DNA of 64,000 nucleotides from positions 54,312,001-54,376,000 of the forward strand of contig CM068742.1 in NCBI GenBank assembly GCA_035084275.1, read 5' to 3'. This stretch comes from Hydrolagus colliei. Its lineage: Eukaryota. A program made the position numbers and the translations under genes. This document shows positions 38,029 through 44,109 of this stretch, in pieces. Each line of letters opens with the position of its first letter. Position 1 is the stretch's first letter. Under the pieces are notes generated by a model, which saw only the letters and a program-made list of their open reading frames with translations, ran no database searches and was not told the DNA's origin.

Positions 38029-38102
38029 TACTCACATTTTGTGGAGTTGAGGGAGTTTCTTGAAGACCCCAGTGGCTTCTAGCACTGTAAATTCATTGTT
38101 GT
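38029..38102 (-). repeat. Inverted partial duplicate of exon 17 plus its donor site
   Basis: Reverse complement matches 42794-42867 at 70/74 nt, including GTGAGTA. Confidence 0.95.
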
Positions 38103-38235
38103 GGGATGGAATTCCAAAGGCTGGGGGCAGAGTGGCTGAAGGCTTGGAGCGGATAGATTGGTAGGAGGTTAGGATGTCACAGAGAAAGGGTTGGACAAAG
38201 CCATTGGGCTTTAAAGGTGAGGACCAGGATCTACA
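38100..38235 (-). mobile_element. L2-type fragment fused to the inverted exon-17 copy
   Basis: The minus strand reads gccttcagccactctgcccccagcctttggaattccatcccac, matching the L2 copy at 44-86. Confidence 0.7.
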
Positions 38236-38337
38236 CCCCTATTTAGAACCTAAGATATTGTGAGACTCATTTTCTGGTGATTTTCAGAATCACTTCTGTT
38301 TCCTGAGGTGTGCTTTCTCATCCCTACTGCGATAGGA

Positions 38338-38426
38338 TTTACCAGATGCGTTGTTATGCAAAGTAGAGGCACTGACCAGGGCTGGGAGTGTTCAGTCACT
38401 TTGAATTTCAGTAACTAATTCAAAAG
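38338..38426 (+). repeat. ~90-nt direct repeat, copy 1 (copy 2 at 40312-40401)
   Basis: tttaccagatgc.ttgttat..aaag.agaggcactgac...ttcagtc.ctttgaatt.cagt.act.attcaaaag; about 11 differences in 90 columns. Confidence 0.85.
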
Positions 38427-39473
38427 TTGAACGGTGCCAAAAAGTTCCACCTTTAAAGAATTTATGAACATTGCGGGAGAGTGGGGTGGGAGGTGGGGTG
38501 GGGGAGGTTGGGGTGTATGAAAATGATCCATCTTCATATTTTTGGCAACAGTGTAGCTGTGCTGGTGAAGTGTAATTCTCTTACTGCTCTAGCTAATGAA
38601 GATTAGATTGTTCCCAGCAGACAATTTGATCTGAATAGACTAGCTAATCTTCATGTCCATTAATAAACGATGATGTGTGTTGTGTGAATATGAGTGGTGC
38701 ATATCGCTAATATGCTTGCGTACCGTTATGAATGCACAGTGAGCGTATTCTGACCTAACCCAGAGTGGAGCTACACGAGTAGTAAATCCCCAAGTACAAT
38801 CGAGATTGATTGCAGGAACTGTTTTGACTGTTTTTCAAGATTTAAGCCTTGGTTTCCCAGAGTATCTGACAAATATGTCAAGTGAATGAAATATTTAACG
38901 TGTCCGACAGCAGGCTGTAGGCATTTTTTATAGCCAGAGGCAGTCCGAGTGAATACTGAAGTTCTTCTGATGTGCTTTGGTGCAACATCCGTGAAGTGGC
39001 CTCCCTTGTGTTTACCATCATTAGCTGTAGACACCCATGGTTCATGTACAATGGAAGGATCTTGAAAGTGGTGCCACAGTCCAGTGCCTTTCAGGTTATA
39101 GATCAGGTAATAATTAGGGGATTATTCCCAGATATCCCACACCAGCAGGGAGTGCTTGCCTGGCACTCTATAACGTGCTGCTGGGAGTTGTTAAGACGTT
39201 TGCCTGACGGGTTCAGTGTATCTTCACAATCGTGCTGTACCCAAGTGGAGTCGAATCCAGGTTAGTGCAGCATTGCATTGTTTAAGTGCTTCCTAGTGAA
39301 GGTTACCTGAGCCAAGGATCTCTTCTATTTAGTCAAATTGACAACTAATGCCCTGTGAGAATCTTAACACAAATTTGGATTGGCTTCTTTGCTTTCCTGA
39401 ATATAAATGCAATTGCTTTCTCTTTCTCTATCCCCCCCCTCTCTCTGTCACTTCTATACTTTACTTTTTTCAG

Positions 39474-39491
39474 GAATTCACCATTTTGGCT
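39474..39491 (+). other. Candidate 18-nt phase-1 cassette exon
   Basis: AG-free, pyrimidine-rich tract 39360-39471, then cag|GAATTCACCATTTTGGCT|gtaagt. Confidence 0.3.
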
Positions 39492-40311: not shown

Positions 40312-40401
40312 TTTACCAGATGCCTTGTTATAGAAAGGAGAGGCACTGACACAAGGCTGGAAGTGTTCAGTCGCTTTGAATTCCAGTCACTGATTCAAAA
40401 G
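40312..40401 (+). repeat. ~90-nt direct repeat, copy 2
   Basis: Aligns to 38338-38426. Confidence 0.85.
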
Positions 40402-40782
40402 AATGGCTCAGGTGGGAGCAGTAAATTGAATTAGATAAGGCTTAGTAACACATGATTGCACTGGTTACGGGAGAGTGGGAAGTCTGCTAGCTTTGTAGTA
40501 GACAGTTGCATTGGAAGGTGTCTGCATTGAAAGGTCAGATTGTAAATGTTACCTCTTCTCTTCCGGACCCTGACTTTCCTTTGTCATAAAGTTCAAGATC
40601 TAGGTGCTTAGGTCTTGAAGTTTTGCTATCTGTGTGGTTTTAATTAAAGTTATCCTGAAATTCTCCTGCCCTGACATTTTGTTTAATTCCCTTGTACATT
40701 TCCACTTCTCTTATGGTGTGAATATGTTTTTTCCAACGTGCTTACTAAATAATATCTGCATTCTGACTGGACTCATCTGCAG

Positions 40783-40933
40783 GCACAGAGGATTACAGAT
40801 CCAAGCTCAGTGGAGATTGCTTCATGGATCTTGCTTGCCCTGAGAAGTGTCGTTGTGAAGGAACCACCGTGGACTGCTCCAATCAAAGACTTACTAAATT
40901 CCCTGACCACATCCCTCAGTACACCGCTGAGCT
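40783..40933 (+). CDS. SLIT2: SLIT2 exon 16 (151 nt), D3 [56 protein letters not shown]
   Basis: catctgcag|GC...CT|gtaagt. Confidence 0.97.
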
Positions 40934-42785
40934 GTAAGTTAACACAGCAGGGCTTGCTTCTTTACACACAAACTCATACATACAACAGACACTCTCTCTC
41001 ATCTGCATCTTGGCAACAAAACAAAGAAATTTTTAATTCATTTAGAAAACAGCTACAGGCAATATCCCAGCATCCCCTCCAGCTGAAAGAAGCAAATGTA
41101 CTCAGGGGAGAAGGGCTGTTGGATGCACATGATGACCAGCAAAGAAAGCAGGGGGAGAAACACTTAGGCTCCTGTTAGAAAGCATTGATGCCAGCAGTGT
41201 GCTGGTCCATCACTCTACAAAACTTGATTCAGACAATAACAAGCTTATCACATTTAACTGAGTAGGTTTTCTTTCTGTTTGGTCGCTTTGGAGGTGAACC
41301 TTGAACCTACAAGTTATAAAAGATTAATGAAGCAATGGCTAAGTATAAGCACTATCTACACTAGTCATACTTGTAGTCCTGATAAATGGCAGTCAAATGT
41401 AACCGTGTCATTATGAACTGATATACCAAGCGAGGGTGAGACAATTTTTAAATGAGGCAGTAGTGGAGGTTGATGCATATGAGGGAGAAAGTCAGTCTAG
41501 ATTTATGCTATTTCTGTAACTATTTAGAGTATCCCCAATTTGGCAAATGTTTAAATACAATGCAGTCCTGTTACAGTGTGCTTCTCTATAGTGTGACTGT
41601 GCTTATACCTCAGGTGCATTGGGGATCTCATGCATTGTGCATGAGCACACCTACAGTCCCCTCATTTCCTATAGATCTGCCAGATTTTCACACTAAAATG
41701 GCCAGCTTCCAGTTCATTAGGATGATTTCTCAGTCACTTCTTGCTTTCTTGCAAGTGCACAAAATAGGCAGTGACATACCACCTATTGATTCTGGTGTCA
41801 ACCGTTTTAGCTTTCCAAAAGCACTCGCAAAAAATGTACAACTTCCAGGTCTTCAGAATCACCATTAACACTACTTTTCATTTTGTCCATATACACAAAA
41901 AACAGGAAATGATATTGCAATGATTAGCCAGCCTGGAAGTTGGCTGTTTGTTTCTTTTCAACGCTTTCTCTACATGCCGATCGATTGTGCACATGAATAG
42001 TCAAACCGACTATCACACCACACTAGAATGCAGGAGATGATGTTATAGATCCAAACAACATGTTTTAGCAAGGCTGCAGAATACAGCTTTAATTTTGTAG
42101 CGGTTTTCTGTAAGTTTTTTTGAAGAAAATACAGAAAACCAAATGAAAGATAAGATTGAAATTAACCATTTGCCTAATTTAGCTCACTCTGAAATCTGTA
42201 AAGACGTAGGGTAAACAGTCGTATCTTTCAGAGTAAAGGTATTAGTTCTGTATATCAGAAGGATTCAGTCCCACATTTCCATGTAGAGATAATGTGATAA
42301 AACTCACTCCCTTAAACCACAGTGTGATGAACCAATCCTTGTTCACAAAGTTGATTGTTTAACTTTCTGCATTTACCAGTAACGTTAAACAGTTTGGTTT
42401 TGAAAGCACAAGATGTGTGACCCTTCAGTTAACATTCAATCAACATGATTGAGTCCTGTGTTCGTAAGTGTAGGTTGTGTAATGTAGAAATGCACTCAAT
42501 GATGATACAAACCTACCGGCAGTAAGCTTGCATCTGGTTTAGAATGATCTTCCATTTGTAATAAAACTGAGTGGGTTTAGAATTATTGTAAGTGTCACTC
42601 TAGCAGTACAGCATTATCTGAGAATAATTTGAAGTGATTTTTTTTGGATGAACTTCATTAAAGCTACCGCAAGAAAGGCTATGCCAGCTGCAGGAGAACT
42701 GAGTGGTTTCCTGAGTGAGTAAAAACACTATTTTCCTATGAATGAATGACGTTTCCTAATTTATTTTTTCCTTTGAATACTTTAG

Positions 42786-42860
42786 GCGTCTCAACAACAA
42801 TGAATTTACAGTGCTGGAAGCCACTGGGATCTTCAAGAAACTCCCTCAGCTCCGCAAAAT
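42786..42860 (+). CDS. SLIT2: SLIT2 exon 17 (75 nt): [25 protein letters not shown]
   Basis: tactttag|G...AT|gtgagt. Confidence 0.97.
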
Positions 42861-44109
42861 GTGAGTACAACTTGAGCTTCGAGGTGCGATTTTCTCTGAG
42901 CCCACAGCAACCCCTGCATGTCATGCACCTCTGTTAGCCAGACTGTCTTAAAGACATTATTTGAGGCCGTGCACAATTAAGCAAGTGACCTGTAATGTGC
43001 CTTTGGCACAGCTGCTGAAGCAGAGTGGAGTTGGCAGCTTGTCCCTCTGTGGACTTAACTGTTGCCAAATAAGCAGCTCTTGGCAGGTGGATCACTGGCA
43101 TCTCCCACTCTTCCATTTGGACAGTTGGCTTCTTCTGCTGCCACAGCAGGGCCCTGCTGGCCACTACAACCCTACAGCAATTGCTGTAATCTCATTTAGC
43201 GTTCTGCAGTCCTCCTCAAACTACAGCCTTCGGCTTCCTCCAGAACGGCATCAACACATGCCTCGGGTTTCTTTAAATGACGATGCTTTCATTGAGAGAA
43301 ATGGTAAAGAGAATTCACTTGATAATTGCTGTTACCACCTGTCTGACATTTAAATCCCAGTAACATCTCAGGAGGCTGCGCTATAAAAGTGTAAGGGCTT
43401 GAAAGTCAAAGTTCACTTGCTCAATGAGCCAATAAAAGCAGGTCATGGGGTGAGGGAAACATCTTCACAGCTCTTTCCCTGCTCTGTACCCACAAGAACA
43501 AGCCCACAGACTCTAATTAGGAAATTAAGCAGTGTAGACTAGGTGCCAGCACAGCACAAGGAACAAGAATTAAATGTAAATGTTGTCTGACAATAACAGT
43601 GGCATTTAACCAAATGTTGTTATACACGGCCTGTAAATCAATGTAAGCACTGTCCACATATCAATAGTACTGATTGACTCTGTTTGTGATGCAGTGGCAT
43701 GCTACATTAGTTAGTTGTTTCACTGAGGTTCGGTATTTAACCGGAAAATCACTAATTCACTGCTCTTTTCAGACACGTTCCTCCCTCCCAACATTCAGGT
43801 TCCCTCTTCACAGCGTGGGCTACGTGCCCTTTTGTAATATGGTATTGTAGACAACTTGTCTCTTTATTGCAAATGCTACTCCACACTGCTGGTCATTTTT
43901 CATGCAATGAGCCTGGATAGTGAGGGGTAGTGTATGTTGATGGGGACTTCAGACTTGAGCTAACCCTGCTCTCACCTAGCATCCTCAGGACTGGACAGCT
44001 GGTAGTTATCTTTCTTCTATCCCTCCCATCCCAAGGATATTGATGCCACATGCTAACAGCAGTCCCACATGCTTTATTAGATTTCAGCCTGATTTGGTAC
44101 TCGGGGATT

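What the first reader, a model, noticed from the sequence alone, without database searches (positions are those of the whole stretch)
38029..42867. Intron 15 holds an antisense copy of exon 17 that covers its 5' splice site: a possible built-in splice switch
Seen: the reverse complement of 38029-38102 equals 42794-42867 at 70/74 nt. That is the last 67 nt of exon 17 plus the first 7 intronic nt (GTGAGTA, the U1 site). In the pre-mRNA three of the four differences become G-U wobbles (42816, 42849, 42854) and one is an A-C mismatch (42829), so 73 of 74 positions can pair. The copy is transcribed ~4.7 kb before its target. Inference: the duplex could act like an endogenous antisense oligo. Skipping exon 17 (75 nt) removes one 25-aa LRR from D3 in frame; skipping 16+17 (226 nt) frameshifts and would probably trigger NMD. 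Caveat: G>A transitions are also common neutral changes.
Basis: partly seen in the sequence, partly recalled or inferred. Interest (0 to 1): 0.8.

Follow-up and report, generated by a model that had tools for sequence, protein, structure and literature searches.

The report
Backwards exon copy in Slit2 intron
An intron of the nerve-guidance gene Slit2, likely from a cartilaginous fish, holds a 74-base backwards copy of a later exon and its splice signal, which is predicted to be able to pair with that exon in the RNA but is most likely a tolerated DNA-repair scar, with no sign so far that it controls splicing.

Summary
In detail: 38029-38102 is a reverse copy of 42794-42867 (70 of 74), the last 67 nt of Slit2 exon 17 plus 7 donor bases, 4,692 nt upstream. 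It has sharp ends and sits between an L2-like repeat remnant and a CR1-like remnant (family names recalled), sharing 3 bases with the repeat on one side. That anatomy fits a local templated insertion made during break repair or template switching. The wobble argument fails: 3 of 4 wobbles arise by chance with P about 0.2. Exon 17 is nearly invariant, and 14 of 14 shark and ray isoforms that span it include it. A micro-exon and the mir-218 hairpin lie between copy and target and could cut the tether first. A stronger inverted SINE pair already brackets exons 16-17. The duplex is predicted to be very stable, so minor skipping or A-to-I editing is not excluded. This scan noted similar copies before in other genomes, several of cartilaginous fish (unchecked). 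Verdict: real, probably neutral, cheaply testable.

The parts
38029..38102 (-). Inverted copy of the last 67 nt of Slit2 exon 17 plus 7 nt of its donor; antisense in the pre-mRNA
   Evidence: 70 of 74 identical; no extension
42786..42860 (+). Slit2 exon 17 (75 nt, 25 codons, one leucine-rich repeat of domain 3); source and target of the copy
   Evidence: AG/GT ends; tblastn with shark Slit2 P0094 96%; open frame
42861..42867 (+). 5' splice site of exon 17 covered by the copy
   Evidence: fully paired in co-fold
38103..38232 (-). Remnant of a multi-copy repeat (L2-like LINE end; family name recalled) that breaks off at the start of the copy; 3 nt (ACA) shared with the copy's first bases in the best in-register sister copy
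   Evidence: 8 other copies in the window at 68-85%; junction register
37095..38028 (-). Decayed, 5'-truncated CR1-like LINE remnant that begins where the copy ends and is interrupted by two younger repeats; CR1 label rests on recalled peptide motifs, not confirmed by any tool
   Evidence: translations; searches that failed to confirm:
37537..37880 (-). SINE-type repeat nested in the CR1-like remnant; its 3' part is one arm of an inverted pair around exons 16-17
   Evidence: 6 of 196 differences from its subfamily majority
44701..44912 (+). Partner SINE arm in intron 17 (90% over 219 nt; predicted duplex -318.8 kcal/mol, the strongest inverted pair of the window)
37387..37456 (-). Small repeat nested in the CR1-like remnant, 9 of 57 columns off the window majority; used as an age marker
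36300..36323 (+). 24-nt alternative exon 15, upstream border of the intron that holds the copy
   Evidence: present or absent among isoforms
39474..39491 (+). 18-nt micro-exon (15b) between copy and exon 16, with AG and GT ends
   Evidence: same peptide in 5 of 15 listed shark and ray Slit2 proteins
39983..40064 (+). mir-218 precursor hairpin, inside the loop the duplex would close
   Evidence: Rfam RF00255, 91.4 bits, E 9.5e-23
40783..40933 (+). Slit2 exon 16 (151 nt), looped out by the duplex
45681..45824 (+). Slit2 exon 18 (144 nt)
   Evidence: (PDB 2v70, Slit2, best natural match)

Best explanation
The element is a 74-base inverted copy of the end of Slit2 exon 17 and its donor, most likely pasted into intron 15 as a templated patch during DNA-break repair or replication template switching, and likely drifting without a selected function. 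Shown: sequence, sharp ends, position at the seam of two unrelated repeat remnants, pairing potential. Inferred: a break in old repeat DNA was bridged by copying 74 nt from 4.7 kb downstream, using 3-4 nt microhomologies, with loss of the sequence that once lay between the two remnants. Inferred: in the pre-mRNA the duplex forms in only a minority of transcripts, because intron 15 splicing, micro-exon 15b use or mir-218 cropping can detach the copy before exon 17 is made; any skipping (mostly 16+17, a frameshift likely removed by decay) or editing would then be a small tolerated leak.
For: Sharp ends, no flank homology. One side is a multi-copy repeat cut mid-element, whose continuation was not found between exon 15 and the copy (three of four sister continuations no better than shuffles, the fourth 2 of 200); the best sister copy continues with ACA, the first three bases of the exon copy. 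The template includes intron bases, so it was DNA or unspliced RNA, not mRNA. All four differences are transitions, one at a CpG, 2 silent and 2 replacement; wobble share not above chance (P 0.20). 4 of 74 differences (95% interval 1.5-13%) match the youngest SINE copies here (3-11%). The same intron holds a second two-copy local repeat with no exon content (38338-38426 / 40312-40401, 88%). Exon 17 is present in 124 of 134 Slit2 proteins that hold exon 16 and in 14 of 14 cartilaginous-fish ones; the 10 without it are UniRef-only models of three species with filler residues at the junction. Precedent: a 220-bp piece of Tbxt intron 6 inserted itself in reverse at a cut site in intron 5 about 1 kb away (PMC10901737, passages); inverted templated insertions with 2-12 nt microhomology occur as human germline variants (PMC8421209, passages).
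Against: A random 74-nt template within 5 kb would cover a donor only 4.0% of the time (weakened by the fact that exon copies are the ones readers notice). The duplex is strong: net -91.5 kcal/mol over local folding, loop cost about 5.5, and the Tbxt precedent shows that an accidental inverted insert can cause heavy skipping in vivo, so 'little effect' is an inference. The copy has no indels. The published MMB-TI class was defined for templates within 100 bp, not 4.7 kb. The listed isoforms come from species whose intron I could not read, so they do not test the copy's effect. Microhomology on the CR1-like side rests on a recalled consensus.
Confidence: 0.62

Rival explanations
1. Exapted regulatory arm: the copy pairs with exon 17 in a regulated share of transcripts, blocks U1 at the donor (skipping of 17, or 16+17 to decay) and/or serves as an editing-complementary sequence that lets ADAR recode exon 17, for instance Ile to Val at the A-C mismatch (42829).
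For: Duplex -133.4 kcal/mol, donor fully paired; copy pairs the donor at -11.8 against -6.9 for the U1 end (U1 motif recalled). The one true mismatch is A-C at a recodable codon (ADAR's liking for A-C is recalled). The small repeat nested in the adjoining remnant is 9 of 57 off its majority, so if copy and remnant are coeval the copy is too well kept (P 0.006). A 30-kb pairing tunes ATE1 splicing (PMC7797038, abstract); stable long-range duplexes are enriched in editing and loop out less-included exons (PMC8052449, passages).
Against: No wobble or silent-site signal. 17 of 22 adenosines listed in the paired coding stretch would change a residue if edited in an exon where 16 of 26 columns are invariant and the Ile is kept in 114 of 119 proteins, Val in 1. 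Conserved complementary regions are depleted at active splice sites. No clean 16>18 isoform among 134 proteins. Micro-exon and mir-218 sit inside the loop.
Confidence: 0.17
2. Capture at a LINE 5' junction: while the CR1-like element was inserting antisense into the transcribed gene, its reverse transcriptase or the joining step copied 74 nt of nearby Slit2 pre-mRNA or DNA, so copy and element arrived together.
For: On the minus strand the copy lies directly 5' of the truncated CR1-like remnant and in the same sense. Extra nucleotides at 5' junctions of fish LINEs often come from flanking sequence (PMC4245944, passages); 15 of 17 mRNA/LINE-1 chimeras are in sense orientation (10.1101/2025.02.02.635956, passages).
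Against: Age mismatch: the remnant carries two nested repeats, one 16% decayed, while the copy is 5% from its source; it would need later gene conversion or selection. No target-site duplication or continuation of the interrupted repeat was found. The CR1 label is unconfirmed.
Confidence: 0.14
3. Assembly artefact: a chimeric or fold-back read placed a piece of exon 17 in the intron.
Against: An artefact would copy the exon exactly; this copy differs by four transitions, one at a CpG. A second sample of the same organism (X5) holds 0.97 of 1,052 sampled words of the 10-kb stretch, but the copy makes up only about 1% of them, so this supports the locus, not the copy itself.
Confidence: 0.03

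Closest known systems
Templated inverted insertions at breaks (MMB-TI, PMC8421209, passages read; spontaneous Tbxt insRCS2 allele, PMC10901737, passages read)
   Same: Short inverted copy of nearby DNA, sharp ends, a few bases of microhomology; Tbxt insRCS2 came from about 1 kb away in the same gene and caused exon skipping.
   Different: Template here is 4.7 kb away (MMB-TI were called within 100 bp); the copied piece is the exon and donor themselves, not intron on the far side of the exon; no empty-site allele seen.
Inverted repeat pairs that loop out exons (Alu pairs, PMC13019944, passages read; TBXT AluSx1/AluY)
   Same: Kilobase-range intramolecular duplex in pre-mRNA; the SINE pair at 37540/44701 is a plain case of this layout around exons 16-17.
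   Different: The 74-nt arm pairs with the exon and donor directly; it is shorter than Alu arms; no skipping data here.
Conserved long-range pairings that steer splicing (PCCRs, PMC8052449, passages read; ATE1 R2-R5, PMC7797038, abstract read)
   Same: Long-range, very stable pairing that overlaps a splice site.
   Different: Those are defined by conservation and compensatory change, neither shown here; they avoid active splice sites; this one lies in repeat debris.
Editing-complementary sequences of ADAR recoding sites (GRIA2 Q/R type; recalled, PMC4053966 seen as listing only)
   Same: Intronic arm complementary to an exon, with an A-C mismatch at a recodable adenosine.
   Different: Known ones are imperfect, conserved and mostly in the adjacent downstream intron (recalled); this one is near-perfect, two to three exons upstream, and no editing is shown.
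5' extra nucleotides and chimeras of LINE insertions (PMC4245944; 10.1101/2025.02.02.635956; passages read)
   Same: Foreign local sequence fused in sense to the 5' end of a truncated LINE-like remnant.
   Different: No target-site duplication found; the copy looks younger than the remnant; LINE identity not confirmed by a tool.

Membership tests
Local templated inverted insertion | Inverted copy of a nearby template with sharp ends | tested here: met
Local templated inverted insertion | Microhomology of 2-12 nt at the junctions | tested here: inconclusive
   3 nt on the L2-like side in 1 of 6 in-register sister copies (a Gln codon at that place in 3 of 6); other side depends on a recalled consensus
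Local templated inverted insertion | Empty-site allele in a relative or in the population | not tested
MMB-TI as defined in PMC8421209 | Template within 100 bp of the insertion | tested here: not met
   4,692 nt; definition
Conserved splicing-regulatory RNA structure (PCCR type) | Stable complementarity overlapping or bracketing splice signals | tested here: met
   -133.4 kcal/mol, donor paired, (prediction)
Conserved splicing-regulatory RNA structure (PCCR type) | Conservation across species with compensatory changes | not tested
   no orthologous intron of a close relative obtained; the one distant contig with exons 16-18 (L001) shows no inverted exon copy but holds only 2.1 kb upstream
Conserved splicing-regulatory RNA structure (PCCR type) | Excess of pairing-preserving changes | tested here: not met
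   3 of 4 wobbles, P 0.20, (low power)
Conserved splicing-regulatory RNA structure (PCCR type) | The target exon is alternatively spliced | tested here: inconclusive
   no clean 16>18 isoform in 134 proteins; none is known to come from a species with the copy
Editing-complementary sequence | A-to-I editing of the paired exon in RNA | not tested
   needs raw RNA reads
LINE 5'-junction capture | Adjoining element is a 5'-truncated LINE in the same sense | tested here: inconclusive
   motif reading is recalled; searches did not confirm it
LINE 5'-junction capture | Target-site duplication or interrupted host sequence resuming after the 3' tail | tested here: not met
   (old short duplications may have decayed)
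Slit2 orthologue | Best protein matches named Slit2, mir-218 in intron 15, 24-nt alternative exon 15 | tested here: met
   protein; mir-218; exon 15

The most novel reading that the evidence does not exclude
Slit2 of this lineage carries its own cis-acting antisense oligonucleotide: a repair scar that became a switch which masks the exon 17 donor and guides ADAR to recode an otherwise invariant repeat, and whose action is gated by whether mir-218 cropping or micro-exon 15b splicing cuts the tether before exon 17 is transcribed, so that microRNA output and Slit2 protein output are coupled. More widely, backwards exon-plus-donor copies in upstream introns may be a recurrent raw material for new splicing control in cartilaginous fishes.
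Probability: 0.1. Interest if true: 0.78.

Novelty: new member of a known kind. Interest (0 to 1): 0.3.

Why it matters
If neutral, it is still a natural experiment: a near-perfect 74-bp antisense arm aimed at an invariant exon and an active donor across 4.7 kb. One RNA-seq data set would show, by junction counts and by A>G changes at 22 exon adenosines, whether such a duplex forms before splicing removes it, a direct test of how far co-transcriptional pairing reaches. If functional, it would be a natural splice-switching oligonucleotide born from a repair accident in a core axon-guidance gene, tied to the host intron of mir-218.

Tried and rejected
No whole genome is held for this window. Metagenome scan with exon 16: 3 loci from 181 candidates; L001 and L002 are distant Slit2 contigs, L003 a 13-residue chance match; too distant and short to date the copy. 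Extension of the copy into intron 17 looked suggestive by eye but is no better than shuffles. Idea that the SINE pair and the copy come from one large inverted duplication: no linking homology between them, and other SINE copies are 85-89% alike too. Attempts to confirm the CR1 label: word search (none scored), full HMMER search (11 hits, bacterial HYR, NHL and similar repeat proteins, judged spurious), Atlas (unnamed clusters only), paper search for motifs (1 unrelated paper), pattern search in the window (itself only), comparison with two other CR1-like pieces at 20.3 kb and 52.0 kb (best 4 of 300 shuffles, the rest chance). L2-like divergence of 5 of 76 is biased towards the query and was not used for dating. 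A second inverted match to exon 17 at 47666-47694 (24 of 29) is reached by 23, 30 and 7 of 2000 shuffles under three scorings and was picked after the fact among 22 exons: treated as probable chance. Two donor positions (exons 14, 19) were off by one base and are not used. Print: searches (3 papers; 1; 4; 10) listed nothing whose title or abstract start describes a natural intronic antisense copy of a gene's own exon and donor, or Slit2 exon 17 skipping; the library lacks most subscription papers, and I read no supplements, where catalogues of complementary regions could list such cases.
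Full report
Observation. In RNA three become G-U pairs and one an A-C mismatch; the predicted duplex is -133.4 kcal/mol. The similarity stops sharply at both ends. Among 22 exon queries only exon 17 has such a copy; the other hits were a mutual match between two paralogous exons and three weak ones at E 0.005-0.03.

The gene. Exon peptides match Slit2: the best natural structure hit for exon 18 is Slit2 (2v70), the exon 16 search returned 261 proteins, the listed ones almost all named Slit homologues, and a set of window exon peptides is 94-96% identical to 14 full-length shark and ray Slit2 proteins, so the source is likely a cartilaginous fish (inference; a chimaera is possible but untested). 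Rfam finds mir-218 at 39983-40064; mir-218-1 is reported in intron 15 of human SLIT2 (10.1101/2020.09.29.319202, listing and abstract start), and a 24-nt alternative exon 15 is present (variants at exon 15 are described in PMC6406468, listing and abstract start). New here: an 18-nt micro-exon at 39474-39491 whose peptide occurs in 5 of 15 listed shark and ray proteins. Exon 17 is 42786-42860; the copy starts 8 nt inside it and leaves the acceptor uncovered, although a co-fold extends a few chance pairs to it. Skipping 17 keeps the frame and the repeat register; skipping 16+17 reaches a stop at the start of exon 18.

Surroundings. On the minus strand the order is: a multi-copy repeat remnant (8 sister copies in the window; its peptide pattern is that of an L2 LINE end, recalled), cut mid-element; the exon copy; then a long decayed remnant (about 38028 to 37095) whose translated pieces read like the end of a CR1 LINE (recalled motifs), interrupted by a SINE (37537-37880) and a small repeat (37387-37456). 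Seven attempts to confirm the CR1 label failed (with 60, 64, 75), so it remains a lead. The best sister copy of the L2-like piece continues with ACA, which is also how the exon copy begins: a 3-nt microhomology, seen exactly in 1 of 6 in-register copies. The rest of the L2-like element was not found beyond the CR1-like remnant, so sequence was probably lost at the seam.

Age and selection. Four differences in 74 (95% interval 1.5-13%) are in the range of the youngest SINE copies (3-11% from their majority) and below the small nested repeat (9 of 57; P of 4 or fewer in 74 at that rate 0.006). The simplest reading is that the copy arrived after the remnant beside it; the alternative is that it is old and held. 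The substitution pattern gives no sign of being held: all four are transitions, one at a CpG; 31 of 74 possible transitions would give a wobble, so 3 or more of 4 has P 0.20; 2 silent of 4 has P 0.44. Power is low. The window holds three two-copy matches; one is a direct 90-nt pair in the same intron with no exon content, which may be another local duplication or a rare repeat. Against pure chance, a random 74-nt template within 5 kb covers a donor in 4.0% of positions, but exon copies are what a reader recognises.

Would it act in RNA? Thermodynamically yes: net gain -91.5 kcal/mol over local folding, loop cost about 5.5. Precedent is real: an accidental 220-bp inverted insert in mouse Tbxt made the skipped form exceed the full-length one (PMC10901737, passages), deleting Alu arms changed inclusion by about 1 to over 40% (PMC13019944, passages), and a 30-kb pairing tunes ATE1 (PMC7797038, abstract). 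Kinetically there are three exits: the micro-exon acceptor comes 1,372 nt after the copy, mir-218 1,881 nt, the exon 16 acceptor 2,681 nt, and a further 2,078 nt are transcribed before the exon 17 donor appears; splicing or cropping in that time would detach the copy (inference from general knowledge of co-transcriptional processing). The duplex ranks ninth by energy among 36 inverted pairs of this window; the first (-318.8) is a SINE pair that already brackets exons 16-17, so any 16+17 skipping could not be assigned to the copy without a deletion test. Exon 17 is under strong constraint: 16 of 26 columns are invariant in 119 proteins, and 17 of 22 paired adenosines would recode if edited, so frequent pairing should be costly unless useful. 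Of 135 proteins examined, 134 hold exon 16 and 124 of these hold exon 17; the 10 without are UniRef-only models of three species with filler residues, none with a clean 16>18 junction. The 14 cartilaginous-fish proteins that span the region all include it, but they are 14 of a 103-member cluster and may come from species without the copy. Conserved complementary regions in human genes avoid active splice sites and are enriched in editing when stable (PMC8052449, passages), which makes editing the most sensitive read-out.

What could not be tested. Nineteen runs hold the 10-kb stretch or part of it, among them a second sample of the same organism (0.97 of 1,052 words) and a close relative (0.46). 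The metagenome scan gave only two distant contigs. An artefact is unlikely on sequence grounds, since the copy is diverged by transitions.

Comparison. By origin it works like a templated inverted insertion (PMC8421209, passages), but fails that class's 100-bp distance criterion; the Tbxt insRCS2 event is the closest match in scale. Capture at a LINE 5' junction (PMC4245944; 10.1101/2025.02.02.635956; passages) fits the orientation but not the ages. By possible effect it resembles exon-looping inverted repeats, conserved long-range pairings and editing-complementary sequences, without any of their defining evidence. Searches listed no paper on this element or on a natural case of this exact layout, in a library without most subscription journals. 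Earlier notes of this scan describe like copies (exon end plus donor, upstream intron) in APCDD1, MOB1B and TEX261 of cartilaginous fishes and in other animals; they are unchecked AI notes, used only as a lead that the layout recurs and deserves a census; no look-alike of this locus itself was indexed.

Verdict. Real feature; most likely a tolerated repair scar (0.62), with an exapted switch or editing guide at 0.17, LINE-junction capture at 0.14 and artefact at 0.03. New member of a known kind. Interest 0.30, carried by how directly one RNA-seq data set would test long-range pairing on an active donor.

Noticed in passing
39474-39491: 18-nt Slit2 micro-exon between exon 15 and mir-218, shared with sharks and rays (5 of 15 listed proteins; related peptides in 2 other proteins). 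I did not find it discussed in the Slit2 splicing papers listed (listings only).
   Followed up: partly
39492-39506 and 42861-42876: The donor regions of micro-exon 15b and exon 17 are alike beyond the consensus (both continue GTACAACT then TGAG within a base); unexplained, perhaps chance or a shared motif.
   Followed up: no
37540-37757 and 44701-44912: Inverted SINE pair, 90% over 219 nt, the strongest predicted duplex of the window, brackets exons 15b-17 and mir-218 and nests outside the exon-copy duplex; candidate for 16+17 skipping or a circular RNA.
   Followed up: partly
47666-47694: Weak second inverted match to the 3' half of exon 17 in intron 18 (24 of 29), about 4.8 kb downstream, mirroring the distance of the main copy; shuffle P 0.004-0.015, picked after the fact.
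   Followed up: yes
38338-38426 and 40312-40401: Two-copy direct repeat (88%, 90 nt) inside intron 15, one copy 240 nt from the exon copy; local duplication or rare repeat.
   Followed up: partly
39983-40064: mir-218 precursor, as in human SLIT2 intron 15.
   Followed up: yes
20297-20537 and 52035-52263: Two further CR1-like remnants (65% alike; family name recalled).
   Followed up: partly
44869-44981: Head-to-head SINE tails form a local hairpin in intron 17 that gives weak Rfam microRNA matches far below their thresholds; judged chance.
   Followed up: no
L001 2117-2839: Distant Slit2 contig with exons 16-18 separated by introns of about 150-200 nt; no inverted exon copy in the 2.1 kb upstream that it holds.
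   Followed up: partly
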